From an uncultured Ectothiorhodospiraceae bacterium (GTDB lineage Bacteria; Pseudomonadota; Gammaproteobacteria; UBA9214), in NCBI GenBank assembly GCA_964564245.1, contig CAZMAK010000001.1, positions 48,989-112,988 on the forward strand: 64,000 nucleotides of DNA. Reading direction: 5' to 3'. The notes below the pieces were generated by a model. It was not told the DNA's origin. It worked only from the letters and a program-made list of their open reading frames with translations, and made no database searches. Below, one piece after another: positions 1,981 to 52,109 of this stretch (position 1 is the stretch's first letter; each line of letters opens with the position of its first letter). A program made the translations under genes and the position numbers.

Positions 1981-2110
1981 AGACACACCCCGCCGTGATA
2001 GGTCACACATTCACCGGTCATTACCGGGAACCGGTTCATTAAACATCCATCGGCATCAATAACAGAATATTGACAGAATTACCCGGACTGTCCGCACATT
2101 CCCCCGGCAT

Positions 2111-36827: not shown

Positions 36828-37009
36828 TGCCAGAAGAAAAACTCGACGGTCGGATTGCGATAATGCCGCTGTAACTTGCGCTCGTAGTGCGAGATCGCGA
36901 TGACCAGCACTCCCGCCACAACCAGCAACGTGGCGACGATAATCGATAACAGCGGCGGGTAGAGCACCAGCAGCAACCCGGCGAGAATCAGTACCACTCC
37001 TGCAATCAT
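36824..37009 (-). CDS. small two-TM membrane protein (DUF3096-like)
   Basis: MIAGVVLILAGLLLVLYPPLLSIIVATLLVVAGVLVIAIS. Start chosen at an internal Met of the track ORF. Confidence 0.4.
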   Translation of the reverse strand: MIAGVVLILAGLLLVLYPPLLSIIVATLLVVAGVLVIAISHYERKLQRHYRNPTVEFFFWH

Positions 37010-37079
37010 GTTACGCTCCGGATAGTAGTTACCTGTCTGAACCTCGGGGCAAACACGAACAAAATCAAGTGGCACTCCG

Positions 37080-38120
37080 ATGAAAAAGGTCGTCATACAC
37101 ACGCCCGGGGGCTATGACCGCCTGCAGGTCGAAACCCACCCGGATCCCACACCGGCGCCACAGGAAGTACTGATCCGTGTGGCGGTGTGTGGTATCAACT
37201 TTGCCGACTGTGTGACCCGCATGGGACTGTATGCCTCGGCCCGCCACTACGTCGGTTACCCGGTCACGCCCGGATTTGAGGTTGCCGGAACCGTGCTGGC
37301 AACCGGCAGCGACATCAGTGGACCGTCACCCGGCACACCGGTGTTCGCCGTCACCCGCTTCAACGGCTATGCCTCGCAGGTTTGCGTGCCCTGTCACCAG
37401 GTCTTCCCGGTTCCGGAAGCGCTCACCCTCGAGCAGGCGGCGGCCCTGCCCGCCGCCGGGCTGACGGCGTGGTACGCACTGGGCGAACTTGCCCATGCCC
37501 GTCCCGGCGACCGGGTGCTGGTACATTCGGCCGCCGGCGGGGTCGGCAGCATGCTGGTCCAGATCGGCAAGCTGCTCGGCTGTCATGTCACCGGCGTCGT
37601 CGGTGCCGCGCACAAAACGGCTGCCGTGCAGGCACTGGGCGCCGAGGACGTGATCGACAAGTCCACGCATGCACTCTGGCCGGAAGCGGAACGGCTCGCG
37701 CCGGAGGGTTATGACGTCATTCTCGACGCAAACGGTGTTGCCACCCTGCGCGAGAGCTATCGGCACCTGGCCGCCACCGGGAGACTGGTGGTATATGGTT
37801 TTCACAGCATGCTGGTCACGCGCCATGGCCGGCCCGACCGGTTGCGACTCGCACTGGACTGGTTGCGCACCCCGCGCTTCAGCCCCTTTGACCTGACCAC
37901 CCGCAACCGCAGCGTCTCGGGCTTCAACCTGAGTTTCCTGTTCGAGCGGACAGCACTGCTGCAGCGCGGCATCGGGCAGTTGCTCGAATGGACCACGGCC
38001 GGACGCCTGCAGGTACCGCCGATCACCACCTTCCGGTTCGAATCCGTGGCCGAGGCACAGCGCGCGCTGGAATCGCGCCAGACCACCGGGAAGCTGGTAT
38101 TGCTGGTCGACGCGCCGTGA
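37080..38120 (+). CDS. zinc-independent MDR-family NADPH:quinone oxidoreductase
   Basis: GVNFAD-like block. AAGGVG cofactor-binding motif. 346 aa. Confidence 0.8.
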   Translation: MKKVVIHTPGGYDRLQVETHPDPTPAPQEVLIRVAVCGINFADCVTRMGLYASARHYVGYPVTPGFEVAGTVLATGSDISGPSPGTPVFAVTRFNGYASQVCVPCHQVFPVPEALTLEQAAALPAAGLTAWYALGELAHARPGDRVLVHSAAGGVGSMLVQIGKLLGCHVTGVVGAAHKTAAVQALGAEDVIDKSTHALWPEAERLAPEGYDVILDANGVATLRESYRHLAATGRLVVYGFHSMLVTRHGRPDRLRLALDWLRTPRFSPFDLTTRNRSVSGFNLSFLFERTALLQRGIGQLLEWTTAGRLQVPPITTFRFESVAEAQRALESRQTTGKLVLLVDAP

Positions 38121-38287: not shown

Positions 38288-38872
38288 TTATCGGTCGCCG
38301 CCTGTCAGCACACGTTCGATGCGCCGGTCCGGGACCAGCCAGATCAGTGCCACCAGCACATACAGACCGATGGAGATCCACTGCGACCGGAATGCGGACG
38401 CAATGGCCAGCGCATAGATGGCCGGTGACAGCTTGCCTTTCCAGTCCCTGCCGATCGCCTTCTTCAGCAGGGACCCGCTGCCCTGCGAGGCGATGATCAC
38501 CTGCTGCAGGATCCAGTAGGCGATGGCGGCCATCAGCAGCACCACGCCGTAAACGGCGGCCGGCACGGCGGAGAAGTGATTCTCACCCATCCAGCCCGTG
38601 GTGAACGGGATCAGCGACAGCCAGAACAGCAGGTGAAGATTCGCCCACAGCATCGGACCGGTCACCTCCCGGCTGGCATGCAGCATGTGATGATGGTTGT
38701 TCCAGTAGATCCCCAGGTAGATGAAACTCAGCACGTAGCTCAGAAACACCGGCAGCAGTGGCACGAGCGCTGCCAGGCTGTCGCCGTGGGGAACCTTCAG
38801 TTCCAGTACCATGATGGTGATGATGATGGCGATGACGCCGTCACTGAATGCCTCGATCCTGTTCTTGTTCAT
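38288..38872 (-). CDS. TMEM175/DUF1211-family putative K+ channel
   Basis: RIEAFSDGVIAIIITIMVLEL (RxxxFSD signature). Six TM segments. Confidence 0.7.
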   Translation of the reverse strand: MNKNRIEAFSDGVIAIIITIMVLELKVPHGDSLAALVPLLPVFLSYVLSFIYLGIYWNNHHHMLHASREVTGPMLWANLHLLFWLSLIPFTTGWMGENHFSAVPAAVYGVVLLMAAIAYWILQQVIIASQGSGSLLKKAIGRDWKGKLSPAIYALAIASAFRSQWISIGLYVLVALIWLVPDRRIERVLTGGDR

Positions 38873-38879
38873 GCCCGGC

Positions 38880-40276
<1,397 letters not shown>

Positions 40277-40280
<4 letters not shown>

Positions 40281-42013
40281 TCCTCCTCCACGATGGTAAA
40301 GCGCATGGCAAAACGGGCGCCCGGCCCGCTGTCGGGCACCAGTACCAGTGTCGCGCCGCTGGCCTCGACCAGGGTATTGGCCAGCGTCAGCCCGAGTCCG
40401 CTGCCCTGCGCCCGGGTCGTGAAGAACGGCTCGAACAGCCGCGTCATCAACTCCAACGGGATACCCGGCCCGCTGTCCTGCAGATAAATCACCACCTCCT
40501 TTCCTTCCACGGTCGAGCCGGCACGCAGCGTTCCCGCCCCCTCCATCGCCTCCAGTGCATTGCGCACCAGGTTGACCCAGGCCTGCTGCAGCAGGTCCGC
40601 ATCGGCGCGAATGCGGTGCTCACCGTGTGTGTAGTTGCTGATGACCGTCACGCCGTCGCGTCCGGTAAGCATCAGTTGCAGGGCCCGCTCCAGCGGCCCT
40701 GCGGGATCGATCAGCATCAGCTGCGGCTTGCGGTGGCGGGCCAGTTGCTGGAAATCGCGGAGAAACTGGTCCAGCCGCTGGCATTCCTCGCGAATCATGC
40801 GCAACAGGTCGGCGCGCCTGGCCGGGTCGTCCGTTGTCTCCAGCAACCGGGAGGCGGTATTGATCACGCCCACCGGGTTGCGGATCTCGTGCGCGAGGGC
40901 CAGCGAAAGCTCACCGAGAGAGGCAATCTTGTCGCGCTGGAAATCCCGCAACTGCTGATCACGACTCTCGCGCAGTGTCGCAGCCATACTGTTGAAGGCG
41001 CGCGCCAGGTCACCGATCTCGTCACGCCAGGCAATCGGTACGCTCGCCCGGAAATCCTGGGCCGCCACCTTCATCACGCCTTCCCGCAGCAGGGTGACCG
41101 GGCGTACCAGCAGCCGTGACAGCAGCAGACCGGTGCTGGCCGCCAGCAGCGTACCCAGCAGTACCACGGCCAGGGTGACTGCCGCCTGGTCGGTCAGGAA
41201 ACGGGCGCCGCCATGGCGTTCCAGGCCACTGAACAGCACCGCCTCCACCCGCCCGCCGGAGTCGGCGACCGGCGTATAGAGGCCCCAGTACTCCCCGTTC
41301 TCCGCCGTATCGCTGTAGTAGTCGTGCTGCTGCTTGAGGCGCTCGAACGCGACCGGTGGCAGACGCAGCCTGAGCGGGCTGCCTTCCCCGGAAAAGGCCT
41401 TGGCGAAATCCCCGTCACGGGGATAGAACAGACGGGTCTTGAGTCCGCTCATGCGACTGAGACGGCCCAGCAGTGCCTGGTCGAATACGGTACCGAACAC
41501 CAGCCGGTAGTGTTTGGGATGATCGTGGGGGTAACGCACGATGGTGACGGCGGCAAGCAGGCTCTTGCTCCCCTGGTTGGCCTTGAGCACGGCGGTACTC
41601 TGCCCGGGCTCCCAGGCGCTGCCGAGCATGACCTTTGAGGAAGAATAGATCTGACGTCCGCGGGGGTCATACACCTGGATCAGGTTGATGCCGAGCTCCC
41701 GCGCCAGCGGCTCCAGCTGGTGCGGGATCGGAGACTGGCCGGCGACGAACCGGGGTGCCTGCCCGCCGGACAGGTGATCGAACAGGTCGGCAAACAACTG
41801 GCCGTTCTTGTTCAGGGTGTCCAGCCAGTTGCTGTTTACCTGCGCCGCCTCCCGGATCCAGCGTTCGATGGAGTCATCCATGCGGCCGGCCACCCATGCG
41901 GCAGAGAGCAGGCCCGTCACCACCATGGGCACCAGGATGATCACCAGTACGACCAGCAGTACCTTGCGCTGGAGTCGGTTCAGGTGTAACGCGGCTAGCA
42001 GGCTACAAGACAC
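40277..42013 (-). CDS. sensor histidine kinase partner of the NtrC-family regulator
   Basis: HEIRNPVG H-box. HATPase G-boxes. Periplasmic sensor region between two TMs. 4-nt overlap with the regulator gene. Confidence 0.85.
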
Positions 42014-42120
42014 GGGTTTCCTTCAAATTTTGTAGATCAGAATTTTAGCAATTTTTTATAAACGAAACATAAATATTCATAACCTGTTGTTTCATAGTAG
42101 TAATAATTTGAATTTTTTGC

Positions 42121-42136
42121 TGGCCTGCATTTTGCA
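42121..42136 (+). promoter_or_regulatory. candidate sigma-54 (-24/-12) promoter TGGCCTGCATTTTGCA
   Basis: GG and GC dinucleotides are separated by exactly 10 nt, and the TTGCA -12 element matches the TGGCAC-N5-TTGCA consensus. Lies in the AT-rich divergent region between the NtrC-like operon and the Sel1-SulP-ClC genes. Confidence 0.4.
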
Positions 42137-42181
42137 GGAGATCTGGTGCACCAACTCATCCCGCTAGGCAAGACACATACC

Positions 42182-43093
42182 ATGCTACACACAGATGACA
42201 GGAACAAGCGTCTCACAATGACACTGTGGAGCGGTCTGCTCGTGGTCGGCCTGATTGCCTTCCTGGCCGCCCGCGCCGGTGGAATCACCGCCGAGAACGA
42301 ACTCGACTGGCTCACCAGGCTGGCCACGCAGGGCGATGCAGGCGCCCAGCTGCAACTCGGGCTGGCCTATCGTGACGGCCGCTACGGACTGCGCCCGGAC
42401 CCGCGGACCAGCCTCCACTGGCTCACTGCCGCCGGTCAGGCCGGCGATCCCTACGCCGCGGACATGGTCGCCAATGACTACGCCCACGGCACCGGCATCG
42501 CGCACGACATGCAGCAGGCGGCGTTCTGGTGGGCACTGGCCGCCCGCGGCGGCAATGCCGACGCCCAGACAAACCTGGGTGAATACCTGCTGTCCAGTGG
42601 CCGTGACGACCAGGCCGTTGAGTGGCTGCGTAATGCCGCGAGCCGTGGCGACACCCGCGCTCGCACCGACCTGGCGCACCTGTATCGCGAGGACGTGCTG
42701 TCCGAACAGGAGCTGCCCGATGCCGACCTGCTGCGTGGCAACAACCCGTTCGCCGTACTGGGTGAGGAGTTCGATTCCCACGGCCTGAAAACCCTGTTCG
42801 CCATCTGGCACGCCATGCAGAACGACGCGCCGCTGCTGCAATCGTCAGACAAGCTGCTGCAGCGCGCAATCAGCGGCGACCCGCTTGCCGAGTACCAGCT
42901 GGGACTGCGTTACCGCGATGGCGCCTGGGCGGTCAGGCGCGACCCGGTCAAGGCCCGGGTCTGGCTGGAGCGTGCAGCGACCGCCGGCAATCGCAATGCC
43001 GCCGAGGCGCTGGCACAACTGAAGCAGAGCGGCGCGCCTGAGCAATCACCGCCCGGACACATCCTCCAGGCAAACCAGACAACCAATCATTAA
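42182..43093 (+). CDS. Sel1-repeat (TPR-like) protein with N-terminal membrane anchor
   Basis: Repeated AxxxLGxxY..G motifs (GDAGAQLQLGLAYRDG, NADAQTNLGEYLL, DTRARTDLAHLYRED). Start placed at the first ATG downstream of the predicted sigma-54 transcription start. The track GTG at 42146 is less likely. Confidence 0.65.
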   Translation: MLHTDDRNKRLTMTLWSGLLVVGLIAFLAARAGGITAENELDWLTRLATQGDAGAQLQLGLAYRDGRYGLRPDPRTSLHWLTAAGQAGDPYAADMVANDYAHGTGIAHDMQQAAFWWALAARGGNADAQTNLGEYLLSSGRDDQAVEWLRNAASRGDTRARTDLAHLYREDVLSEQELPDADLLRGNNPFAVLGEEFDSHGLKTLFAIWHAMQNDAPLLQSSDKLLQRAISGDPLAEYQLGLRYRDGAWAVRRDPVKARVWLERAATAGNRNAAEALAQLKQSGAPEQSPPGHILQANQTTNH

Positions 43094-43114
43094 CCACCCC
43101 CAAGGAACCCGTTT

Positions 43115-44953
43115 ATGACCAAACCGGAATACCCTGTGTGGCTGCAGAGAGTGCTGCCCGTGCTTAACTGGAAGGAACGTATTACCAGGGACACGCTTCG
43201 CGCCGACCTGATCGCCGGACTGACTGTCGCGATCGTGGTGGTGCCGCAGGCAATGGCCTTCGCCTCCATCGCCGGCATGCCGCCGCAGTACGGCCTCTAC
43301 GCGGGCATGATCCCGCCCATCATTGCCGCCCTCTTCGGCTCCTCCTGGCACCTGATGTCGGGACCGACCACCGCGGCCTCCATCGTGCTGCTTTCCTCAC
43401 TGAGCGCCTTTGCCGAGCCGATGACACCGCAGTACGTCCAGCTCGCCTTCACACTCACCCTGATGGTCGGTGTGATCGAACTGACGCTCGGGCTGGCGCG
43501 CATGGGGACACTGGTCAACTTCATCTCCCACTCGGTGGTGGTAGGCTTTACCACCGGCGCCGCCATTCTGATTGCCGCCAAGCAGCTGAAGAACTTTTTC
43601 GGCGTACCGATCCCGCGCGAAGGTCACCTGTTCGCGACCCTGGAACACTTCGTGCACCAGATCCCCAACATCAACGGCTACATCACGGCAATCGCCATGC
43701 TGACCCTGGTCTCCGGCCTGGTCGTGAAGGCCTTCTATCCCAGGGCGCCGTTTCTGATCGTGGGGCTGTTCTCCGGCACCTTCCTCAGCGTGGGCCTCAA
43801 CCATTTCCTCGGCACCGACGTCACCCACGTCAGTACCGTCGGCGCGCTGCCACAGACCCTGCCGCCACTGTCAATGCCGGACTTCTCCTACGCCACGATG
43901 CACAAGCTCGTCCCCGCCGCCCTGGCGATGACCCTGTTCGCGCTGACCGAGGCGGTCTCCATCGGCCGCGCCATCGGCATCCGCAGCGGCCAGCTGATCG
44001 ACGGCAACCAGGAGTTCATCGGACAGGGCCTGTCCAATATCGCGGGCAGCTTCTTTTCCGCCTACGTGGCCACCGGCTCGTTCAACCGCACCAGCCTCAA
44101 CTACCAGGCCGGCGCGAAGACGCCGGTGAGCGCCATGACCGCCGGGGTCCTGGAGATCTTTATCGTGCTGGCGATCGCCCCGCTGGTCGCCTACCTGCCC
44201 AACGCGGCGATGGCGGGCATCCTGTTTACCGTCGCCTGGGGCCTGATCGACTTTGTGGCTATCAGGCACATCCTGCATACCACCCATTCGGAACGGGCGG
44301 TGTTCATCACCACCTTCGTCGCGACCCTCACCCTCGACCTGGTGTTTGCCATCATGCTTGGCATCCTGCTGTCGCTGGTGCTGTACCTGATGCGGGTTTC
44401 CAAGCCGCATATTGTCAGCCGCGTACCCGACCCGCATCTGCCCAACCGCAAGTTTTCCAGCGTGGTGGAAGGCAATCACCTGACCGAGTGTCCGCAGCTG
44501 CACATCATGCGCATTGACGGTTCACTGTTTTTCGGCTCGGTGGCCTACATCCGCGAAAAATTCGCGCGTCTGGCCAAGCAGAAACCGGAACAGAAACACC
44601 TGGCCATCGTGGCACAGGGCATCAGCTTCGTGGACATCGCCGCCGCCGACGTGCTGGCCAACGAGGCGGAACGGCGGCGCGCCAGCGGCGGCGGTTTATA
44701 TCTTATCAACCCCAAGGACGGACTGTGGCGATCCCTTGAGGAATGCCATGCGCTGGAGAAGATCGGCACCAACAACATCTTCCGCAGCAAGTCGGCGGCA
44801 CTGCACGGCATCTTCCAGAAACTGGACAAGAAGGTCTGCAGCAATTGCAGTCTGAGCACCTTCCGGGAATGTGCCAGTGTCAACTGCAACTGCAAACCGG
44901 ACCCGGCGGCAACTGAATCGGTATTGCCGGTCGAAACCCTGGCAAGCGCCTGA
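43115..44953 (+). CDS. SulP-family anion transporter with C-terminal STAS domain and Cys-rich tail
   Basis: SulP signature region around LTVAIVVVPQAMAFASIAGMPPQYGLY. C-terminal STAS. Extra tail CSNCSLSTFRECASVNCNC. Confidence 0.9.
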   Translation: MTKPEYPVWLQRVLPVLNWKERITRDTLRADLIAGLTVAIVVVPQAMAFASIAGMPPQYGLYAGMIPPIIAALFGSSWHLMSGPTTAASIVLLSSLSAFAEPMTPQYVQLAFTLTLMVGVIELTLGLARMGTLVNFISHSVVVGFTTGAAILIAAKQLKNFFGVPIPREGHLFATLEHFVHQIPNINGYITAIAMLTLVSGLVVKAFYPRAPFLIVGLFSGTFLSVGLNHFLGTDVTHVSTVGALPQTLPPLSMPDFSYATMHKLVPAALAMTLFALTEAVSIGRAIGIRSGQLIDGNQEFIGQGLSNIAGSFFSAYVATGSFNRTSLNYQAGAKTPVSAMTAGVLEIFIVLAIAPLVAYLPNAAMAGILFTVAWGLIDFVAIRHILHTTHSERAVFITTFVATLTLDLVFAIMLGILLSLVLYLMRVSKPHIVSRVPDPHLPNRKFSSVVEGNHLTECPQLHIMRIDGSLFFGSVAYIREKFARLAKQKPEQKHLAIVAQGISFVDIAAADVLANEAERRRASGGGLYLINPKDGLWRSLEECHALEKIGTNNIFRSKSAALHGIFQKLDKKVCSNCSLSTFRECASVNCNCKPDPAATESVLPVETLASA

Positions 44954-45073
44954 CCGTACACCCGTTCCCGGCACCGTGGTGTCCGGGGACGGGCCCTTGA
45001 TCTGTTCCGATACATCCGGAATACCCGCCGGCGGCAGCCCGGCGGCACACACACTGAAAGGAACCTGACCCGC

Positions 45074-46435
45074 ATGTCTCATCGTCATGGCCCCCCGTTA
45101 CGCCATCACATCCGGCGCAGCCAGCGCAAATTCCTGTCACGCTTCGCCTGGAAGACACGGCTGGTGCTGTGGGCCGGTGCCCTGCTGGTGGGCCTGATCT
45201 GTGCCGTGTTCGCCCTGCTGGCCGACCAGGCCGACCACGTGTTTCGCTATCTGACCACATTCGGCCCCTGGGTGCCGCTGGTCGTGACCCCGCTGACACT
45301 GGCCGGACTGGCGTGGGCGACCCGCAACCTCTTTCCCGGCTCGCAGGGCAGCGGCATCCCGCAGGCCATTGCCGCGCTCGAATCGAGCCGCAAGGGTGCC
45401 GTGCTGTCGCTGCGTATCGCCGCCGGAAAGATCCTGCTGACACTGCTCGGCCTGGTGGCGGGCGCCTCGATCGGACGCGAGGGGCCATCGGTGCACATCG
45501 GCGCCTCGATCCTGTACTCGCTGGGCCGCATCGCGCGTTTCCCGCCACGCTACATGGAACGCGGCCTCATCCTCGCCGGCGGTGCGGCGGGTATCGCGGC
45601 GGCGTTCAACACCCCGCTGGCCGGTATCGTGTTTGCCATCGAGGAGATGAGCAAGAGCTTCGAGCAGCGCGCCAGCGGCATCGTGACCATCGGCGTGGTC
45701 ATCGCCGGTGTCACCGCGCTGGCCACGCTCGGGCCGTACCACTACTTCGGCACTTCCGATGCCTTCATGCCGGATACCGCGAGCTGGCTGGCGATCCCGG
45801 TCTGCGGCGTGATCGGCGGCCTGCTCGGCGGGCTGTTTTCCAGTGCGCTGGTCGAAGGCTCGCGCCGGCTCACCCCGGTCGTGCGTCATCACCCCTACCT
45901 GGTCGCGTTTGCCTGTGGGCTGGTGGTCGCCGTCATCGCATACTTTTCCGACTACAGCTCCTCGGGCACCGGCTACGCCACCGCGAAGTCCATCATCACC
46001 GGCACGGCCGACTGGGATCCGCTCTATCCCGTGCTGAAATTCGGATCCACACTGGCCTCCTATCTGAGCGGTATTCCGGGCGGCATCTTCGCCCCCTCGC
46101 TGGCCACCGGCGCGGGTGTCGGCGCCAATCTCGGTCACTGGCTCCCGATCGCCCCGGTCTCCGTGATGATCATCCTCGGCATGGTGGGCTATTTCTCGGG
46201 TGTCGTGCAGTCACCGATCACGGCCTTCATCATCGTCACGGAGATGATCAACGACCAGGACATGCTGCTGGCCCTGATCGCGACCTCCTTCATTGCCTAC
46301 GGGGCGTCACGCCTGGTGTGTCCGCAGCCCATCTATCATGCCCTGTCGCAGGCGTTCCTCAGGTCAGAAGCGGAGACACAGGGCGCCGGCAAGCCGGACC
46401 TGCCCGCACCGGGATCCGCACGTCAGGAGGGCTGA
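45074..46435 (+). CDS. ClC-family chloride channel/transporter (no CBS domains)
   Basis: GSGIP and GREGP selectivity-filter motifs. 10-12 TM. Confidence 0.85.
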   Translation: MSHRHGPPLRHHIRRSQRKFLSRFAWKTRLVLWAGALLVGLICAVFALLADQADHVFRYLTTFGPWVPLVVTPLTLAGLAWATRNLFPGSQGSGIPQAIAALESSRKGAVLSLRIAAGKILLTLLGLVAGASIGREGPSVHIGASILYSLGRIARFPPRYMERGLILAGGAAGIAAAFNTPLAGIVFAIEEMSKSFEQRASGIVTIGVVIAGVTALATLGPYHYFGTSDAFMPDTASWLAIPVCGVIGGLLGGLFSSALVEGSRRLTPVVRHHPYLVAFACGLVVAVIAYFSDYSSSGTGYATAKSIITGTADWDPLYPVLKFGSTLASYLSGIPGGIFAPSLATGAGVGANLGHWLPIAPVSVMIILGMVGYFSGVVQSPITAFIIVTEMINDQDMLLALIATSFIAYGASRLVCPQPIYHALSQAFLRSEAETQGAGKPDLPAPGSARQEG

Positions 46436-46486: not shown

Positions 46487-47536
46487 TCACTGTTTCACAG
46501 GCAGGACGCAACGCCGGATTTCCGGACTGTTGCCGGCCGGGACCAGGTTTTCGAAAAACTGTCGCGTGGCCATTTCCCAGGTGTGCTTCAATGCCTCCGC
46601 GCGGCAACGTTCGCGCGAGAGGTCCAGTGCGGCAAGCGCCGCCCGGCCCAGATCCATGTCCAGAAACCCCGTCTCTTCGTGCGTGACCACGTCGACCGGC
46701 CCGGTCACCGGGAAGGCCGCCACCGGTACCCCGCAGGCCATCGCCTCCAGCATCACCAGCCCGAAGGTATCGGTGAGACTGGGAAACACGAACACATCCG
46801 CCGCGGCGATGTAACGTGACAGCTCCCGTCCGAACCGATAGCCGGCAAACAGTACCTCCGGATAACGGCGGCGCAATTCCGCCAGGCGCGGTCCGTCACC
46901 GATGATGCACTTGCTGCCCGGCAGTTCAAGCCGCAGGAACGCGTCGAGATTCTTCTCCACGGCAACGCGGCCGGCACAGGCAAACAACGGGCGCGGCACC
47001 GCCAGCGGCTCCCGCTCGTCCGGGGTAAAGAGCGCCGTATCCACGCCACGCGACCAGCGCACGATGTGGCTGAAATTCCACCGCTTCAGCAACCGCTCCT
47101 GGCTGGCCGTGGCCACCATGGTGCGTTGTGCGGAATTGTGAAAGCGCCGCATGAAGGCATAGGAAACGGCAAGCGGTACCGGCACACGCCTGCGGATGTA
47201 TTCCGGAAACTGGGTATGGTACGACGTGGTGAATGCCAGACCGTTACAGAGACAGTACCGGCGCGCAGCCTGCCCAAGCGGCCCCTCGGTCGCAATGTGG
47301 ATGTGGTCCGGTGCCAGCGCGGCCAGTTGCTTCGCGACGGCGCGGTAGGGACGGAACGACAGCCGGATCTCCGGATAGGTCGGGCACGAAAAGGTGCGAT
47401 GGTCCTGCGGCGTCAGCATGGTGACCCGGTGACCCAGGTCTTGCAGGCTGCCACGGGTCTGGTTCAGGGAATTGACCACACCGTTGACCTGGGGCGCCCA
47501 GGCGTCCGTGATGATCGCAATCGAGGCTGCACTCAT
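46487..47536 (-). CDS. GT4-family glycosyltransferase
   Basis: C-terminal EX7E region FPSLTDTFGLVMLEAMACGVPV. N-terminal MSAASIAIITDAWAPQVNGV. Start chosen at an internal Met of the longer track ORF. Confidence 0.8.
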   Translation of the reverse strand: MSAASIAIITDAWAPQVNGVVNSLNQTRGSLQDLGHRVTMLTPQDHRTFSCPTYPEIRLSFRPYRAVAKQLAALAPDHIHIATEGPLGQAARRYCLCNGLAFTTSYHTQFPEYIRRRVPVPLAVSYAFMRRFHNSAQRTMVATASQERLLKRWNFSHIVRWSRGVDTALFTPDEREPLAVPRPLFACAGRVAVEKNLDAFLRLELPGSKCIIGDGPRLAELRRRYPEVLFAGYRFGRELSRYIAAADVFVFPSLTDTFGLVMLEAMACGVPVAAFPVTGPVDVVTHEETGFLDMDLGRAALAALDLSRERCRAEALKHTWEMATRQFFENLVPAGNSPEIRRCVLPVKQ

Positions 47537-47657
47537 GGCCCACCCGGCATGCAGGCCGGCAGATCCGCTTCGGAACCACGAGTATCTCGCGGCTACATGG
47601 CAGTTTGATGGTGTTTTTGTTACCGGTCCGTGACAGCCGCCGGCATCGCGCCGTGTC

Positions 47658-48305
47658 ATGCAAGGTACACACAACCTTCATGAAACTGTTGCATTGGCGG
47701 CGCATGCTGGCTCACGGGTCAGAACAGGGATGCAACTCATGGCATTGGAAACCTGTGGCAGACTGGGCAGCTTCGCCCGGAAACTCGACAACGTGGACGT
47801 CAGCCTGTGCGCGAGGCTGAACCGGTTCAGCCGCACACCACTGGTACGGGACCTGTTTCGCATCATCAGCCGCGTCGGTGACGGCGTGTTGTGGTACTGC
47901 ATGATGGCCGTCCTGCCGGTGATCGGTGGCTACAGCGGCCTCGTGGCTACCCTGCACATGGCCGGCACCGCCCTGGCCGGGCTGGCCATCTACAGGATCA
48001 CCAAGCTGCTGTCCGGGCGCGAACGCCCCTACGTCCAGCACGGTGACCAGGTCGCCTGCGTGATGCCTCCGCTCGACCGGTACAGCTTCCCGTCCGGCCA
48101 TACCCTGCACGCCGTCAGCTTCACGATGGTCCTGTACGGCTATTTCCCGCAGATGATCTGGGTGCTGATGCCGCTGACCGCACTGATCGCGCTGTCACGC
48201 ATGATCCTGGGACTGCACTACCCGAGCGATGTGCTGGCCGGAGCCGCAATCGGCGCGGCACTGGCGCTGGTGAGTTTCAGGCTGCCGCTGCCAGCGGCCT
48301 GCTGA
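47658..48305 (+). CDS. PAP2-family lipid phosphatase
   Basis: KxxxxxxRP (KLLSGRERP), PSGH and SRxxxxxHxxxD (SRMILGLHYPSD) motifs. True start may be an internal Met around 47730. Confidence 0.75.
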   Translation: MQGTHNLHETVALAAHAGSRVRTGMQLMALETCGRLGSFARKLDNVDVSLCARLNRFSRTPLVRDLFRIISRVGDGVLWYCMMAVLPVIGGYSGLVATLHMAGTALAGLAIYRITKLLSGRERPYVQHGDQVACVMPPLDRYSFPSGHTLHAVSFTMVLYGYFPQMIWVLMPLTALIALSRMILGLHYPSDVLAGAAIGAALALVSFRLPLPAAC

Positions 48306-48334
48306 GCCGGGGGTACCCTGCGCATGGCCCCGAC

Positions 48335-48718
48335 TCAGGCCGGGGCGAAGAAATTCTGGTAAATGATCAGACCCCAGCAGATTGCCGTCATCCACAGGCT
48401 GATGAACACCGCCGCCGAACCCATGTCCTTGGCACGTCCGGACAGCTGGTGGATGTCCGCGCCGATCCGGTCCACGACCGCCTCGACGGCCGAGTTCAGC
48501 AGTTCCACCACCAGCACGAACAGGCAGGTACCGATCAGCAGGCCACGTTCCACCGCCGAGTGGCCGACCCAGAGCGCCGCCGGCACCAGGAACAGGCACA
48601 ACACCAGTTCCTGGCGAAACGCCGCCTCGTTTTTCCAGGTGGCCCTGATACCGGCAATGGAATAGAGCGCGGCATTCCAGACACGACGCATGCCACCGAC
48701 CTGATTATGATTCGCCAT
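48335..48718 (-). CDS. dgkA: diacylglycerol kinase
   Basis: 127 aa, three TM, ELLNSAVEAVVDR motif. Confidence 0.85.
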   Translation of the reverse strand: MANHNQVGGMRRVWNAALYSIAGIRATWKNEAAFRQELVLCLFLVPAALWVGHSAVERGLLIGTCLFVLVVELLNSAVEAVVDRIGADIHQLSGRAKDMGSAAVFISLWMTAICWGLIIYQNFFAPA

Positions 48719-48840
48719 GCTGGCTCCAGCGTTTGCGGCGCTACAGTGTACCTGCAGTCATTTATCCCGGCCATCCCCGCAACCGTGCAGCGGGGCAGTG
48801 CGTTAATAAATCTGCAATATCCGGCTGCTAGCATCCTGCG

Positions 48841-49659
48841 ATGCCTGAAAATCCTGCGCAGCGGGGGCACAAGAAGGTGCATTACCGGACCATCTGGCTG
48901 TCCGACATCCACCTCGGCACACGTGGCTGCAAGGCCGGCTTCCTGCTCGATTTCCTGCGTTCCACCGAATCCGATCACCTGTACCTCGTCGGCGACATCA
49001 TCGACGGCTGGTCACTGCGCCGCACCTGGTACTGGGACCAGAATCACAACGACGTGGTGCAGAAGATCCTGCGCAAGGCGCGCAAGGGCACCACCGTCAT
49101 CTACGTTCCGGGCAACCACGACGAGTTTGCCCGGCAATACGTGGACCTGATGTTCGGCGGCATCGAGGTCAGGAACCACGTCATCCATGAACTGGCCGAC
49201 GGCCGACGGTTGCTCACCCTGCACGGCGACGAATTCGACGGCGTGGTGCGTTACGCACGCTGGCTGGCGATCCTGGGCGACCTCGCCTACCGGGCAGCAC
49301 TGGCACTGAACCACTGGGTGAACGGCATCCGGCGCCGGCTGGGCTATCCGTACTGGTCGCTGTCGGCCTGTCTCAAGCACAAGGTCAGGAACGCCGTGCA
49401 GTTCATCGACAACTACGAACACCTGGTCGCACGCGAGGCCGGCCTGCACGAGGTCGATGGCGTGGTGTGCGGCCATATCCACAAGGCGGAACTGCGCCAC
49501 ATCGACGGCATCCTGTACTGCAACGACGGCGACTGGGTCGAGAGCTGCACGGCACTGGTCGAGACACTGGAAGGAAACCTGGAAATCCTCCACTGGACGG
49601 ACGCCGGCAACACCGTGTTGTTCAGTTCCGCCACGCTGCAGCCCGCCGTGGCGGCCTGA
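48841..49659 (+). CDS. LpxH-like metallophosphoesterase, PlcP-type phospholipase C candidate
   Basis: WLSDIHLG, LVGDIIDGW, VPGNHDE, LHGDEFD and CGHIHKAE motifs. Followed 24 nt later by a GT4 glycosyltransferase, as in plcP-agt lipid-remodelling operons. Confidence 0.6.
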   Translation: MPENPAQRGHKKVHYRTIWLSDIHLGTRGCKAGFLLDFLRSTESDHLYLVGDIIDGWSLRRTWYWDQNHNDVVQKILRKARKGTTVIYVPGNHDEFARQYVDLMFGGIEVRNHVIHELADGRRLLTLHGDEFDGVVRYARWLAILGDLAYRAALALNHWVNGIRRRLGYPYWSLSACLKHKVRNAVQFIDNYEHLVAREAGLHEVDGVVCGHIHKAELRHIDGILYCNDGDWVESCTALVETLEGNLEILHWTDAGNTVLFSSATLQPAVAA

Positions 49660-49682
49660 ACGCAAGGCGGCGGGGGTTCAGC

Positions 49683-50882
49683 ATGAATATCCTGATGATT
49701 TCCGACGTGTACTTTCCACGGGTCAACGGTGTCTCGACCTCCATCGCCACCTTCCGGCGCAGCCTGCTGGAGTCGGGCCACCGTGTCTGCCTGATTGTCC
49801 CGGACTACCTGCGCGACGCTGGTGACGACCCGGACATCATTCGCATTCCGTCCCGTTATCTCGCGCTGGACCCGGAAGACCGGATGCTGAAGTCCGGCGC
49901 CATCCTGTCTCTCGAGGCCGAACTGCGCACACGCGACCTTGACCTGGTGCATATCCAGACCCCGTTTATCGCACACCGCGTCGGCCTGCAGCTGGCCAGG
50001 CGGCTTGGCCTGCCGGCGGTCGAGACCTGCCACACCTATTTCGAGGAATACCTCTATCACTATGTCTCCTTCCTCCCACGCGGCCTGATGAAGGCCGCGG
50101 CCCGTCATTTCACCCGGGCACAGTGCAACCGCCTGGACGCCGTGATCGTCCCGTCCACGGCGATGCAGGAGGTACTGAAATCCTACGGGGTCAGGGTGCC
50201 GCTATCGATCATCCCGACCGGACTCGATCTGGCGCAGTTCACGGGTGGCTCCGGCGCACGCTTCAGGAAGGCCAACCACATCACCGCACAGCAACCGGTA
50301 CTGGTGTTCGTCGGGCGCGTGGCACATGAGAAAAACATCGGCTTCCTGCTGGATGTGGTGGACCGTCTGCGGCCGGCCTGGCCGGATCTCCTGCTGCTCA
50401 TCGCCGGCGAGGGGCCGGCACGAAACTCCCTGCAGACCCGGGTTTCCCGGGCCGGTCTCAAGGACAATGTCCGCTTTGTGGACTACCTGCCGCGTGGCGA
50501 GCCGCTCTGGGACTGTTTCCGTGCCGGCGACCTCTTTGTTTTCGCCTCACCGACCGAGACCCAGGGACTGGTCCTGCTGGAAGCCATGGCGCTCGGTGTA
50601 CCGGTGGTCTCCACCGCGGTGATGGGTACCCGCGACATCCTGCTGCCCGGACGCGGTTGTCTCGTCGCCGAGGAAGAACCCCGGGCATTCGCCGACCGGG
50701 TGGCGGGGCTGCTGGAGCGGCCGGCACAGCGCCGGCAACTGGCCAGCGAGGCCCGTGACTACGTTAGCGGGTGGTCCGCCGGCGAGATGGCCGCGCGGCT
50801 CGTGACGTTCTATACACAGGTACTCGACAATCCCGCGGCAGCGGCAAGCGGTCAGCCGGAACAGGCGACCCGGACCGGCTGA
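49683..50882 (+). CDS. GT4-family glycosyltransferase (Agt-like glycolipid synthase candidate)
   Basis: MNILMISDVYFPRVNGV N-terminus. VFASPTETQGLVLLEAMALGVPVV EX7E motif. Start at ATG 49683, internal to the track ORF. Confidence 0.8.
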   Translation: MNILMISDVYFPRVNGVSTSIATFRRSLLESGHRVCLIVPDYLRDAGDDPDIIRIPSRYLALDPEDRMLKSGAILSLEAELRTRDLDLVHIQTPFIAHRVGLQLARRLGLPAVETCHTYFEEYLYHYVSFLPRGLMKAAARHFTRAQCNRLDAVIVPSTAMQEVLKSYGVRVPLSIIPTGLDLAQFTGGSGARFRKANHITAQQPVLVFVGRVAHEKNIGFLLDVVDRLRPAWPDLLLLIAGEGPARNSLQTRVSRAGLKDNVRFVDYLPRGEPLWDCFRAGDLFVFASPTETQGLVLLEAMALGVPVVSTAVMGTRDILLPGRGCLVAEEEPRAFADRVAGLLERPAQRRQLASEARDYVSGWSAGEMAARLVTFYTQVLDNPAAAASGQPEQATRTG

Positions 50883-50997
50883 CTTCCACCCTGCCCGGCA
50901 TTCCCGCCAGCGGGATTGCGGCTTGTTCCGCGGCGTCGACGCGTGCAAACTCGGCGCACACATCGGGAGACACAGACCACTCCGGGCCGGGCAGAGC

Positions 50998-51573
50998 ATG
51001 CGATCCTTCATCCGTACCGCAGTCTCACTGACCTGGCTGCTCTGCCTGCCTGCCCTGCAGCTGCCGGCACTCGAGCGGCCGTCGCCGCCAGGCGCCTGGT
51101 ACGAGGACGACCGCATGCTGGTCAGGCTGGTGCCGCGCACGCCCATGCAGATGGCCGCATTCTACGAGGCACGCGGCTTCCCGCCGGCCGCGCTGGACCG
51201 GATCCGGCAGACCTGTTTCATCACCCTGACGGTCCGCAACAAGGGCAGGGAAGTCCTGTGGGTGGACCTGGACCAGTGGAAGTTCTCCAGCCACGGCGAG
51301 GACGTTGACCGCCTCGACCGGGGCTACTGGCAGCAGCAGTGGGACCGGATCAGCCTGCGCCAGGCCAGCCGCTCCACCTTCGGCTGGACCCAGTTCCCGC
51401 CGCTTCGTGACCTGCAGCCGGACGAACCGGCGGGCGGCAACCTCGTCTTCCCGGGTAACCTCGACAGCGTGACCGTCGCGGCCGTGCTGCACACCGGCCC
51501 CGACCGCAATGGCCCGCCGATCCGGCTCGGCTTCGGCAATCTTCCCTGCGCGAAGGGAGACGCCGGATCATGA
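50998..51573 (+). CDS. secreted hypothetical protein
   Basis: Signal peptide MRSFIRTAVSLTWLLCLPALQLPALE. No motif recognised. 4-nt overlap with the following thioredoxin-like gene. Confidence 0.4.
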   Translation: MRSFIRTAVSLTWLLCLPALQLPALERPSPPGAWYEDDRMLVRLVPRTPMQMAAFYEARGFPPAALDRIRQTCFITLTVRNKGREVLWVDLDQWKFSSHGEDVDRLDRGYWQQQWDRISLRQASRSTFGWTQFPPLRDLQPDEPAGGNLVFPGNLDSVTVAAVLHTGPDRNGPPIRLGFGNLPCAKGDAGS

Positions 51574-52109
51574 AGCGCCTGCCCAGCACCATCCTGCTGA
51601 TACTGCTGCTGACGATGGCGACCGGTTACGCGCAATCGCTCCCGCCGGGCGTGATGAGTGTCACCCCGAAACCGGCGCCGGCACTGCAACTGAAGGATCT
51701 CGATGGCCAGGCCCGTGACCTGGCCGCAAGCGCCGGTCACTGGCGTTTCGTGCATTTCTGGGCCAGCTGGTGCGCACCGTGCCGGCGTGAAATGCCCGCC
51801 ATCCAGGCCATGATTCCGCTGCTGAAAGACAGTGGCATGGTGTTCGTACTGGTCAACACGGCCGAGACCGAGGACGAGGTCTTCACCTTTGTCGGGAGCG
51901 TCGCGCCCGACCTCGTCCCGCTGCTGGACAGCGACGGGCTGGTGACCGGGGCCTGGCAACCACGCGGCCTGCCGGCGACCTTCCTGGTCGACCCGGAAGG
52001 CCGCATCCGTTACCAGGCACTGGGCGGACGCGCATGGGACAAACCGCAGTACCGGGAATTCCTGCGCCGGCTGGCAGCTACGCCAGCCAGTCCAGCAGGT
52101 AGTAGATGA
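51570..52109 (+). CDS. TlpA/ResA-like periplasmic thiol:disulfide oxidoreductase
   Basis: Signal peptide. WASWCAPCRREMP thioredoxin-fold active site. Confidence 0.8.
   Translation: MKRLPSTILLILLLTMATGYAQSLPPGVMSVTPKPAPALQLKDLDGQARDLAASAGHWRFVHFWASWCAPCRREMPAIQAMIPLLKDSGMVFVLVNTAETEDEVFTFVGSVAPDLVPLLDSDGLVTGAWQPRGLPATFLVDPEGRIRYQALGGRAWDKPQYREFLRRLAATPASPAGSR

What the first reader, a model, noticed from the sequence alone, without database searches (positions are those of the whole stretch)
46487..50882. Lipid-remodelling gene cluster: GT4, PAP2, DgkA, PlcP/LpxH-like phosphoesterase, GT4
An LpxH-like metallophosphoesterase is followed 24 nt later by a GT4 glycosyltransferase. This matches the plcP-agt pair used for phosphate-sparing replacement of phospholipids by glycolipids.

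Diacylglycerol kinase, a PAP2 lipid phosphatase and a second GT4 are adjacent. An acyltransferase sits elsewhere in the window (6999-7751).

Upstream of the phosphoesterase gene, CTACAGTGTACCTGCAGTCAT at about 48739-48761 has a weak Pho-box flavour.
Basis: partly seen in the sequence, partly recalled or inferred. Interest (0 to 1): 0.55.

Follow-up and report, generated by a model that had tools for sequence, protein, structure and literature searches.

The report
Phosphate-sparing membrane glycolipid gene cluster
This is a five-gene set that most likely lets an uncultured sulfur-bacterium relative swap phosphorus-containing membrane lipids for sugar lipids when phosphate runs short; the pathway is already known from other bacteria, so it is a fairly ordinary new example with a few corrected details.

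Summary
The "LpxH-like" phosphoesterase is not LpxH. It scores 34.6 bits against a cut-off of 134 and is 28% identical to E. coli LpxH. It is 63% identical to the Burkholderia cenocepacia protein of the validated PlcP cluster.

- **Which GT4 is Agt.** The canonical Agt orthologue is the divergent upstream GT4 (46487-47536). It carries the Agt-clade motifs GRVAVEKN and FPSLTDTFG. It matches the gene that follows plcP in 72 of 80 other genomes. The GT4 directly after plcP belongs to a different, Mgs-like clade.
- **The Pho box.** The flagged motif is at chance level (9/14 matches, PWM -6.6 bits). The best Pho-type element of the whole 64-kb window is a double box at 47597-47636 facing the Agt gene. 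A second array faces PAP2, and a weak box lies at 48801-48818 before plcP. All are conserved in position in related genomes.

The same five-gene layout occurs in six other uncultured gammaproteobacterial lineages. DgkA linkage has a Burkholderia precedent; PAP2 linkage appears undescribed.

Verdict: a new member of a known pathway, of modest interest.

The parts
46487..47536 (-). GT4a: glycosyltransferase of the Agt/GTcp clade, the canonical DAG glucosyl/glucuronosyl-transferase of lipid renovation. 349 aa.
   Evidence: Pfam GT4 domains. It carries the motifs GRVAVEKN and FPSLTDTFG, which define the GTcp/Agt clade in PMC8231724. It is 48-58% identical to the GT that follows plcP in 72 of 80 genome loci, including Burkholderia plcP-agt-dagK. 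JGI names an 87%-identical homologue '1,2-diacylglycerol 3-alpha-glucosyltransferase/glucuronosyltransferase'. The AF2 model has pLDDT 89.9 and a GT-B fold.
47581..47586 (-). Candidate -10 hexamer GATACT for the GT4a promoter, 10 nt after the Pho array.
   Evidence: On the plus strand it reads AGTATC. It is identical in the window and L005; the other five relatives carry AGTCTT or ATTCTT at the aligned position. The geometry is inferred, not tested.
47597..47636 (-). Double Pho box facing GT4a. Four 11-bp-phased half-sites: CTGTCAC ggac CGGTAAC aaaa ACACCAT caaa CTGCCAT.
   Evidence: The single-box PWM hits rank 5 and 12 of 127,966 window positions. The double-box score of 23.0 bits is the best of all 127,922 positions. 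The top double-box hit of each of six related loci falls in the same intergenic region. The half-sites are conserved in phase.
47653..47692 (+). Second phased array facing PAP2: GTGTCAT gcaa GGTACAC acaa CCTTCAT gaaa CTGTTGC.
   Evidence: It has the second-best double-box score in the window, 13.4 bits. The block is conserved in all seven genomes. It is weaker than the GT4a array, and assigning it to PhoB is an inference.
47739..48305 (+). PAP2-family integral membrane lipid phosphatase. 188 aa.
   Evidence: Pfam PAP2, 78 bits. The catalytic motifs KX6RP, PSGH and SRX5HX3D can be read in the sequence. It is below all NCBIfam equivalog cut-offs: SepP 58/250, PgpB 37/261, LpxE 26/177. The best solved relatives are an acid phosphatase (7f18, E=4.7e-7, partial match) and Aquifex LpxE (6ebu, E=1.8e-6, the only near-full-length match). 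It is conserved in the cluster in seven lineages. Homologues in Acinetobacter and Ralstonia sit directly after a GT4 gene.
48335..48718 (-). DgkA, prokaryotic diacylglycerol kinase. 127 aa.
   Evidence: Pfam DAGK_prokar, 117.6 bits against a cut-off of 22.3. A dgkA gene is linked to plcP-agt in 12 of 80 genome loci. It forms part of the Pi-induced B. cenocepacia operon BCAL2364-2366 (bioRxiv 10.1101/2023.05.30.542800).
48745..48752 (-). On the minus strand it reads TACACT, a -10-like hexamer 26 nt before the dgkA ATG.
Evidence: A GGAG Shine-Dalgarno sequence lies between it and the dgkA start. The promoter role is inferred.
48801..48818 (+). Weak candidate Pho box before plcP: CGTTAAT aaat CTGCAAT.
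   Evidence: PWM 6.8 bits, rank 44 of 127,966. The orthologous position scores 10.6 in L005, 10.4 in L085, 14.2 in L089 and 10.4 in L090. There is none in L086 or L091.
48826..48834 (+). TGn-extended -10-like element TGCTAGCAT, 7 nt after the box and 6 nt before the plcP ATG.
   Evidence: L089 and L090 have TGCTAGCGT and L005 has TGCCAGGAT at the same distance. This geometry implies a leaderless plcP mRNA. That is inference only.
48841..49659 (+). PlcP: intracellular phospholipase C of the calcineurin-like metallophosphoesterase superfamily, commonly mislabelled LpxH. 272 aa.
   Evidence: All metal-binding motifs are present: D22-x-H24, G-D52, G-N92-H, H128, G-H212-x-H214. LpxH models score 34.6 against a cut-off of 134 and 31.7 against 190. 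Solved LpxH structures match only at E of about 3e-4. It is 28% identical to E. coli LpxH over 127 aa. It is 63% identical over 251 aa (E=2e-121) to a B. cenocepacia member of the PlcP 90% cluster.
49683..50882 (+). GT4b: second GT4 glycosyltransferase, of an Mgs-like clade outside the Agt clade. It is probably co-transcribed with plcP. 399 aa.
   Evidence: Pfam GT4 domains. Its motifs are GRVAHEKN and FASPTETQG, with Glu in place of the clade Asp. The best NCBIfam hits are GlcNAc-PG synthase (124.6/480) and alpha-monoglucosyl-DAG synthase Mgs (122.3/400), both below cut-off. JGI names an 84%-identical homologue '1,2-diacylglycerol 3-alpha-glucosyltransferase'. It is linked to plcP in the seven-lineage cluster, in Thiohalobacter and, divergently, on Thiodictyon plasmid pTs417. 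The AF2 model has pLDDT 87.6 and a GT-B fold.

Best explanation
This is a chromosomal five-gene module organised around diacylglycerol (DAG). It most likely serves phosphate-starvation membrane lipid renovation in an uncultured gammaproteobacterium whose nearest genome is an Ectothiorhodospiraceae MAG.

Proposed steps:
- PlcP (48841-49659) cleaves bulk glycerophospholipids at the cytoplasmic face into DAG and a phospho-headgroup. This frees phosphorus.
- Two retaining GT4 enzymes then glycosylate DAG from UDP-sugars to make phosphorus-free glycolipids. GT4a is the Agt-clade enzyme (glucosyl and/or glucuronosyl DAG). GT4b is an Mgs-like enzyme coupled to plcP; its product is most likely monoglucosyl- or glucuronosyl-DAG, or a second sugar on such a lipid.
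- DgkA returns surplus DAG to phosphatidate and so buffers DAG levels.
- The PAP2 phosphatase probably runs the opposite reaction (phosphatidate or another lipid phosphate to DAG plus Pi), or strips other envelope lipid phosphates.
- Transcription is predicted to be PhoB-dependent. There are back-to-back double Pho boxes between GT4a and PAP2, and a weaker single box just before plcP-GT4b.

Shown here: the gene identities and family placements, the synteny, and the conservation and statistical rank of the motifs.

Inferred only: the enzyme substrates, the glycolipid products, PhoB binding, induction by low phosphate, and the role of PAP2.
For: **PlcP identity.**
- All metallophosphoesterase motifs are present.
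- It is 63% identical (E=2e-121) to a B. cenocepacia protein in the same 90% cluster as the Bcc orthologues of BCAL2364.
- Deletion of BCAL2364 abolishes Pi-stress glycolipids (bioRxiv 10.1101/2023.05.30.542800).
- LpxH models fall far below cut-off. Identity to E. coli LpxH is 28%.

**GT4a is Agt.**
- It has the clade motifs (PMC8231724).
- It is orthologous to the plcP-adjacent GT in 72 of 80 genomes.
- JGI gives a near homologue the KO-style name glucosyl/glucuronosyl-transferase.

**GT4b is linked to plcP** in three different arrangements. Near homologues are named DAG glucosyltransferase.

**DgkA has precedents.** It is part of the Pi-induced Burkholderia plcP-agt-dagK operon, and DagK is PHO-dependent in P. 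putida (PMC5082522).

**Cluster conservation.** The five-gene cluster is kept in seven lineages whose PlcP proteins are 70-79% identical to the window's (L005, L085 and L086).

**Regulation.**
- As a positive control, Pho-box-like sites are enriched upstream of plcP in 80 genomes: 54% reach 10/14 or more, against 8.9% of background segments.
- The double-box score ranks 47597-47636 first of 127,922 window positions.
- In each of six relatives the top double-box hit falls in the same intergenic region.
Against: - There are no expression, lipid or enzyme data for this organism, and every regulatory site is a computational prediction.
- The plcP-proximal box is weak in the window (6.8 bits) and absent in two of the seven relatives.
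- GT4b fails the Agt-clade motif test and reaches no curated family cut-off. Its acceptor and sugar are unknown.
- The PAP2 protein matches no equivalog model. By homology its active site may face the periplasm, which would fit a lipid A or C55-PP phosphatase as well as a phosphatidate phosphatase.
- I could not compare directly with S. meliloti SMc00171, P. aeruginosa PA3219/PA3218/PA0842 or SAR11 PB7211_983/960.
Confidence: 0.78

Rival explanations
1. Only plcP, GT4a and perhaps dgkA form the lipid-renovation unit. GT4b and/or PAP2 serve another envelope pathway. Examples are a glycosylated phospholipid such as GlcNAc-PG, a polysaccharide or LPS step, lipid A 1-dephosphorylation, or undecaprenyl-phosphate recycling with DgkA acting as a polyprenol kinase.
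For: - GT4b lacks the Agt-clade Asp motif.
- Its top NCBIfam hit is GlcNAc-PG synthase, tied with Mgs.
- The best PAP2 matches are Und-PP phosphatase SepP (NCBIfam), an acid phosphatase, and multifunctional Aquifex LpxE, the only near-full-length solved match.
- In Ralstonia, the GT4-PAP2 pair lies next to a DUF2334 gene (the deacetylase family of GpgD) and another GT (PMC12713373).
Against: - GT4b stays next to plcP in three independent gene arrangements: co-directional, spaced, and divergent on a Thiodictyon plasmid.
- No gpgD or gpgF homologue is present in the window cluster.
- All hits to those alternative families are 3-4 fold below cut-off.
- PAP2 shares a Pho-array-bearing divergent promoter region with the Agt gene in all seven genomes.
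Confidence: 0.14
2. The cluster makes glycolipids, but not as a PhoB-controlled phosphate-starvation response. It would be constitutive, or respond to another signal such as salinity, envelope stress or growth phase. The phased repeats would then bind a different regulator.
For: - The window's plcP has no consensus-grade Pho box; the best is 9/14 and 6.8 PWM bits.
- The PAP2-side array contains TACAC and TGTTGC units that fit the PhoB consensus poorly.
- PhoB specificity in this lineage is unknown.
Against: - The GT4a-side double array is the top-scoring Pho-type element of the whole window and of five of the six related loci (in L089 the PAP2-side array ranks first). It has correct 11-bp phasing and a -10-like hexamer 10 nt downstream.
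- plcP orthologues in other gammaproteobacteria (L017, Thiohalobacter L020) carry 12/14 boxes.
- Every experimentally studied PlcP system is Pi-regulated.
Confidence: 0.06
3. This is a lipid A/LPS cluster. The phosphoesterase would be an LpxH-type UDP-2,3-diacylglucosamine diphosphatase, as public annotation says. The PAP2 protein would be a lipid A phosphatase and the GT4s would be core glycosyltransferases.
For: Public pipelines name the protein and its homologues LpxH / UDP-2,3-diacylglucosamine diphosphatase. The only PDB sequence hits are LpxH structures.
Against: - LpxH equivalog scores are 34.6/134 and 31.7/190.
- Identity to E. coli LpxH is 28% and limited to the N-terminal metal-binding half.
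- The protein is 63% identical to the Burkholderia PlcP group, whose members carry the same LpxH label although the B. cenocepacia gene was shown to act in glycolipid formation.
- GT4a has the DAG-glycosyltransferase clade motifs.
- No other lipid A genes are nearby.
Confidence: 0.02

Closest known systems
Burkholderia cenocepacia plcP-agt-dagK operon (BCAL2364-2366)
   Same: It has the same three core functions. Window PlcP is 63% identical to a B. cenocepacia PlcP-cluster protein. GT4a is 52-53% and DgkA 46-47% identical to the Bcc orthologues. The operon is Pi-induced and required for MGDG/GADG formation.
   Different: In the window the Agt gene is divergent and separated from plcP by PAP2 and dgkA, and dgkA is divergent rather than last in an operon. 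A second, non-Agt-clade GT4 follows plcP, and a PAP2 gene is added.
Pseudomonas aeruginosa PlcP (PA3219) with Agt1 (PA3218) and Agt2 (PA0842)
   Same: One PlcP works with two distinct GT4 enzymes, one making MGDG and one GADG, and each transcription unit has a Pho box (PMC8528852). The sizes match: Agt1 is about 351 aa against GT4a's 349, and Agt2 is 406 aa against GT4b's 399.
   Different: In P. aeruginosa the second GT is at a separate locus, whereas here both are in one cluster. If the size match reflects orthology, the partner next to plcP is swapped. No sequence comparison was possible, so the Agt1/Agt2 mapping is untested.
Agt/GTcp clade of GT4 (Agrobacterium Atu2297, SAR11 HTCC7211 PB7211_960)
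   Same: GT4a has both clade motifs, GRVAxEKN and FPSxTDTFG, including the catalytic Asp. It has the typical length of about 335-350 aa.
   Different: GT4a is not adjacent and co-directional with plcP. GT4b, which is, has FASPTETQG and lies outside the clade.
Sinorhizobium meliloti PlcP (SMc00171), the founding member
   Same: It belongs to the same LpxH-like calcineurin phosphoesterase family and is used for Pi-limitation lipid remodelling. This rests on the literature cited.
   Different: S. meliloti channels DAG to betaine lipid (DGTS) rather than glycolipids. This statement is from my own knowledge. No direct sequence comparison was run.
LpxH (UDP-2,3-diacylglucosamine diphosphatase)
   Same: It has the same superfamily fold and metal-binding motifs, and the same database label.
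   Different: The window protein fails the curated LpxH models. Identity is 28%, confined to the N-terminal half. The genomic context is different.
Small membrane PAP2 lipid phosphatases (Aquifex LpxE, E. coli PgpB)
   Same: The three catalytic motifs are present. The size is similar (188 aa against 180 aa) and the match to LpxE 6ebu covers nearly the full length.
   Different: The E-value is only 1.8e-6, and scores are far below the equivalog cut-offs. The substrate is unknown. Linkage to plcP/agt was not found in the searchable literature.

Membership tests
PlcP (LpxH-like intracellular phospholipase C of lipid renovation) | Calcineurin-like metallophosphoesterase with a complete set of metal-binding motifs | tested here: met
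   DxH (D22, H24), GD (D52), GNH (N92), H128 and GHxH (H212, H214) are all present and identical to the B. cenocepacia protein.
PlcP (LpxH-like intracellular phospholipase C of lipid renovation) | Groups with experimentally validated PlcP rather than with LpxH | tested here: met
   It is 63% identical over 251 aa to B. cenocepacia P0377, against 28% over 127 aa to E. coli LpxH. The comparison was pairwise only. No full tree with SMc00171, PA3219 or MED193_17359 was made.
PlcP (LpxH-like intracellular phospholipase C of lipid renovation) | Genomic linkage to a gene for a phosphorus-free lipid (agt, btaAB and similar) | tested here: met
   GT4b lies 23 nt downstream and the Agt-clade GT4a lies 1.3 kb upstream. 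Both are conserved in seven lineages.
PlcP (LpxH-like intracellular phospholipase C of lipid renovation) | Pho box in the plcP promoter | tested here: inconclusive
A weak site at 48801-48818 (6.8 bits, rank 44 of 127,966) is conserved in position, with higher scores, in four relatives and absent in two.
PlcP (LpxH-like intracellular phospholipase C of lipid renovation) | Phospholipase C activity releasing DAG from PC, PE or PG | not testable with these tools
   This needs an enzyme assay or lipidomics.
LpxH | Reaches the curated equivalog score (NF003743 / TIGR01854) | tested here: not met
   It scores 34.6 bits against a cut-off of 134, and 31.7 against 190.35.
Agt/GTcp clade of GT4 - applied to GT4a (46487-47536) | UDP-sugar motifs GRVAxEKN and FPSxTDTFG, with Asp as the catalytic residue | tested here: met
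   GRVAVEKN and FPSLTDTFG are present. D256 and H107 are invariant among 35 homologues. No alignment to GTcp itself was made.
Agt/GTcp clade of GT4 - applied to GT4a (46487-47536) | Orthologous to the GT encoded next to plcP in other bacteria | tested here: met
   It is 48-58% identical to the GT downstream of plcP in 72 of 80 loci.
Agt/GTcp clade of GT4 - applied to GT4b (49683-50882) | UDP-sugar motif FPSxTDTFG with the catalytic Asp | tested here: not met
   It has FASPTETQG, with Glu. It is about 30% identical to Agt-type proteins.
Alpha-monoglucosyl-DAG synthase Mgs (NF049988) - applied to GT4b | Reaches the equivalog cut-off | tested here: not met
   It scores 122.3 bits against a cut-off of 400. 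Similarity only; JGI's name for near homologues is automatic.
GlcNAc-phosphatidylglycerol synthase GpgS (NF053787) - applied to GT4a and GT4b | Reaches the equivalog cut-off and is linked to the gpgD deacetylase and gpgF | tested here: not met
   The scores are 124.6 and 71.3 bits against a cut-off of 480. No deacetylase or flippase gene is in the cluster (PMC12713373).
Prokaryotic diacylglycerol kinase DgkA | Pfam PF01219 above the gathering score, small three-TM protein | tested here: met
   It scores 117.6 bits against 22.3, covering 101 of 102 profile positions, in a 127-aa protein. Lipid substrate (DAG or undecaprenol) was not tested.
PAP2 lipid phosphate phosphatase | Three catalytic motifs KX6RP, PSGH and SRX5HX3D | tested here: met
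   KLLSGRERP, PSGH and SRMILGLHYPSD are present. Pfam PAP2 scores 78 bits. Specific subfamilies (SepP, PgpB, UppP, LpxE) are all below cut-off.
PhoB binding site (Pho box) | Two or more 7-bp TGTCA-type direct repeats with 11-bp periodicity, about 10 bp upstream of a -10 element | tested here: met
This applies to 47597-47636 (-): four phased half-sites, the best double-box score in the window, and the intergenic region that holds the top double-box hit in all six relatives. It is met only as a sequence pattern; PhoB binding is not testable here.

The most novel reading that the evidence does not exclude
The five-gene layout is a distinct version of the PlcP pathway that has not been described, and it is fixed in a clade of uncultured sulfur-cycle Gammaproteobacteria. 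On this reading:
- plcP is translationally coupled to a non-Agt, Mgs-like GT4 clade that represents a second, uncharacterised family of PlcP-partner DAG glycosyltransferases.
- A PhoB-controlled PAP2 phosphatase is a genuine third DAG-supplying or phosphate-stripping arm of lipid renovation.
- PAP2 and DgkA together form a regulated phosphatidate/DAG switch.
- plcP is expressed from a Pho-box promoter as a leaderless mRNA.
Probability: 0.3. Interest if true: 0.45.

Novelty: new member of a known kind. Interest (0 to 1): 0.3.

Why it matters
Lipid renovation by PlcP-Agt lowers the phosphorus quota of abundant environmental bacteria, and in pathogens it alters antibiotic susceptibility. This locus extends the pathway to an uncultured Ectothiorhodospiraceae-like gammaproteobacterial lineage.

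It also illustrates three practical points.
1. The widespread "LpxH / UDP-2,3-diacylglucosamine diphosphatase" label on these proteins is misleading.
2. The GT next to plcP is not always the Agt-clade enzyme.
3. A PAP2 lipid phosphatase travels with the pathway in this lineage and shares its Pho-type promoter region, which gives a concrete candidate for an additional step.

None of this overturns current understanding.

Tried and rejected
It matches the consensus at 9 of 14 positions and scores -6.6 PWM bits. The half that resembles CTGTCAT is not conserved in L005.
- **LpxH identity rejected**. No second lpxH-like gene is in the window. Whether the genome has one elsewhere cannot be seen from 64 kb.
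- **GT4b as Agt rejected**, on motif and identity grounds.
- **Reaching P. aeruginosa, S. meliloti or SAR11 reference proteins failed.**
  - The afdb50 fold library was not installed.
  - The paper supplements hold only locus tags and lengths, not sequences.
  - PMC2806695 is not held.
- **AF2 models with PDB Foldseek** for both GTs returned only generic retaining GT-B enzymes (MshA, BshA, PimA/PimB'). That says nothing about the acceptor.
- **The distant acyltransferase at 6999-7751** was checked as a possible OlsA or PlsC partner. It is below all cut-offs and in an unrelated context.
- **orf216/TlpA downstream of GT4b** is not part of the cluster, because opposite-strand genes separate the two in five relatives.
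- **The promoter/terminator consensus scan** of the region gave nothing above shuffled expectation.

Full report
**Observation.** The region holds five well-supported genes.
- GT4a, 46487-47536 (-), 349 aa, GT4 domains.
- PAP2, 47739-48305 (+), 188 aa.
- DgkA, 48335-48718 (-), 127 aa, DAGK_prokar 117.6 bits.
- A calcineurin-type phosphoesterase, 48841-49659 (+), 272 aa.
- GT4b, 49683-50882 (+), 399 aa.

The phosphoesterase stop codon and the GT4b ATG are 23 nt apart. Four JGI metagenome contigs carry identical genes with the same gene calls. The acyltransferase at 6999-7751 exists. It is a generic PlsC-like protein below all curated cut-offs, and it lies between a secretin gene and a hybrid histidine kinase gene 40 kb away. 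I see no link to the cluster.

**The phosphoesterase is PlcP, not LpxH.**
- It scores 34.6 bits against the LpxH equivalog cut-off of 134, and 31.7 against 190.
- Solved LpxH structures match only at E of about 3e-4.
- E. coli LpxH aligns at 28% identity over the N-terminal 127 residues.
- By contrast, thousands of homologues at 60-83% identity exist across Alpha-, Beta- and Gammaproteobacteria, nearly all auto-labelled "LpxH".

Among 80 genome loci, the Burkholderia cepacia-complex ones show the order phosphoesterase - GT - dgkA. That is the plcP-agt-dagK operon BCAL2364-2366. It was shown to be Pi-induced, and its plcP is required for MGDG, KGADG and GADG formation (bioRxiv 10.1101/2023.05.30.542800). 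The B. dolosa orthologue shares a 90% cluster with B. cenocepacia proteins. The window protein is 63% identical to one of these over 251 residues (E=2e-121), with every metal-binding motif conserved. No second lpxH-like gene is in the window. The rest of the genome cannot be checked.

**Which GT4 is Agt.** In 72 of 80 genome loci, the GT directly downstream of plcP is the orthologue of the window's divergent GT4a (48-58% identity). It is only about 30% identical to GT4b. The biochemical study of the SAR11 enzyme defines the Agt/GTcp clade by GRVAxEKN and FPSxTDTFG, with an essential Asp (PMC8231724). GT4a and all plcP-adjacent GTs that I extracted carry exactly these motifs. GT4b and its relatives carry GRVAHEKN and FASxTETQG.

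JGI's automatic names agree with this split.
- An 87%-identical GT4a homologue is called [quoted passage not shown].
- An 84%-identical GT4b homologue is called "1,2-diacylglycerol 3-alpha-glucosyltransferase".

GT4b's best curated-model hits, GlcNAc-PG synthase and Mgs, are 3-4 fold below cut-off. GT4b nevertheless remains tied to plcP in three arrangements:
- co-directional in the seven-lineage cluster;
- about 240 nt downstream in Thiohalobacter;
- divergent on Thiodictyon plasmid pTs417.

So it is probably a second DAG-directed GT. P. aeruginosa also uses two GTs: Agt1 for MGDG and Agt2 for GADG (PMC8528852). Their gene lengths, 1056 and 1221 bp, match GT4a and GT4b respectively. I could not obtain the sequences, so this mapping is only a lead.

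**Conservation.** The same five genes, in the same order and orientation, occur in several other genomes.
- L005, an Ectothiorhodospiraceae MAG; its PlcP is 79% identical.
- L085 and L086, two large MAG contigs; their PlcP proteins are 70% and 73% identical.
- L089, L090 and L091, three further contigs.

All lie in the same chromosomal neighbourhood: PMSR, a small ORF and usually an alcohol dehydrogenase (absent from L005) upstream, and TlpA-like, SixA-like and alpha/beta hydrolase genes downstream. This points to vertical inheritance in an uncultured gammaproteobacterial clade. DgkA is also linked to plcP-agt in 12 of 80 loci. DagK is PHO-dependent in P. putida BIRD-1 (PMC5082522).

I found no paper that links a PAP2 gene to plcP. 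However, PAP2 homologues at 41-45% identity in Acinetobacter baumannii and Ralstonia sit directly after a GT4 gene. A GT4-PAP2 functional pair is therefore plausible. The PAP2 protein has all three catalytic motifs. It reaches no subfamily cut-off, and its only near-full-length solved match is multifunctional Aquifex LpxE.

**Regulation.** That is chance level: 221 such sites occur in the window, and 37% of random 210-nt segments reach this score.

As a positive control I scored the 200 nt upstream of plcP in the 80 genomes. 54% reach 10/14 or more, against 8.9% of random segments. Two gammaproteobacterial loci have 12/14 boxes. I built a PWM from 17 of these sites.

The same PWM places 47619-47636 (-) at rank 5 of 127,966 window positions, and an in-phase neighbour at 47597-47614 at rank 12. 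In L005, L085, L086 and L091 the single best hit of the whole locus is at the orthologous place. Scoring two boxes 22 bp apart gives these results:
- 47597-47636 (-) is the best of all 127,922 window positions, at 23.0 bits;
- 47653-47692 (+), facing PAP2, is second;
- in all six relatives, the top hit falls in the same GT4a|PAP2 intergenic region.

The GT4a-side array consists of four phased half-sites (CTGTCAC / CGGTAAC / ACACCAT / CTGCCAT). It is followed 10 nt later by a -10-like GATACT that is identical in L005.

In front of plcP there is a weak site at 48801-48818 (6.8 bits). It is conserved in position and scores 10.4-14.2 bits in four relatives. A TGn-extended -10-like TGCTAGCAT follows it and ends 6 nt before the ATG. 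That geometry suggests a leaderless transcript, which is inference only.

It is more simply a dgkA -10 element.

**Mechanism.** The best-supported model has three parts.
- Under phosphate limitation, PhoB activates GT4a, PAP2 and plcP-GT4b.
- PlcP and possibly PAP2 generate DAG and release phosphorus, and the two GT4s convert DAG into glycolipids.
- DgkA recycles excess DAG.

Family placement, synteny and motif statistics are shown here. Substrates, products, PhoB binding and induction are inferred from characterised relatives.

**Novelty.** The pathway, the two-GT scheme and the DgkA linkage are all published. The new elements are modest:
- the lineage;
- the single-locus five-gene layout, with the Agt gene divergent and an Mgs-like GT coupled to plcP;
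- the PAP2 member;
- the back-to-back double Pho arrays.

I rate it a new member of a known kind, interest 0.3.

Noticed in passing
window 34518-34535 (+): The best single Pho-box PWM hit of the whole window is here: AAGTCATTTTTCTGTCAT, 12/14 consensus matches, 16.4 bits. It lies in a low-GC stretch (34-36 kb, GC 0.58) with no convincing gene nearby.
   Followed up: no
window 36824-37009 (-) and 37069-37086 (-): A conserved 61-aa small ORF with two predicted transmembrane helices sits between PMSR and the alcohol dehydrogenase, and is present in all six relatives. A Pho-box-like site (rank 4 in the window) lies 60-77 nt upstream. L086 has its rank-2 hit at the same place. It may be a Pho-regulated small membrane protein.
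   Followed up: partly
window 38288-46435: A six-gene block (TMEM175-like channel, NtrC-type response regulator, histidine kinase, Sel1-repeat protein, SulP permease, ClC channel) lies between the alcohol dehydrogenase and GT4a. It is absent from all six syntenic relatives, so it is a lineage-specific insertion.
   Followed up: partly
window 50923-51573 (+) and 51570-52109 (+): orf216 has no Pfam or NCBIfam hit and probably has a signal peptide from the internal Met. It overlaps a TlpA-like thioredoxin gene by 4 nt, and the two are paired in all seven genomes. In five of them, HbpS-like and DUF1028 genes separate the pair from GT4b, so it is a separate unit of unknown function.
   Followed up: partly
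L092 3687-5561 (A. baumannii CP035931.1); L093 3824-5510 (Ralstonia wenshanensis CP076412.1): PAP2 homologues (41-45% identical) lie immediately downstream of a GT4 gene that is 30-36% identical to GT4a and lacks the Agt-clade Asp motif (the Ralstonia gene has the Glu form, FPSLTETFG). In Ralstonia the pair is next to a DUF2334 gene (a GpgD-like deacetylase family) and another GT. This recurrent GT4-PAP2 pair has an unknown product.
   Followed up: partly
window 48826-48841 (+); L089 and L090 around 5103-5118: The plcP start codon is preceded by a TGn-extended -10-like element that ends 6 nt upstream, and there is no Shine-Dalgarno sequence. This suggests a leaderless mRNA. Some relatives (L086, L091) instead have AGGAG-like sequences there.
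   Followed up: no
P0363-P0383 (Burkholderia proteins); L088 3991-4803: NCBI annotation names the Burkholderia PlcP orthologues and the Thiodictyon homologue 'UDP-2,3-diacylglucosamine diphosphatase'. This is a systematic mislabel of the PlcP family as LpxH.
   Followed up: yes
window 2059-2076 (-): A 12/14 Pho-consensus match, CTGTCAATATTCTGTTAT, lies about 50 nt upstream of a gene for a CarboxypepD_reg-like domain protein (1306-2010, minus strand).
   Followed up: no
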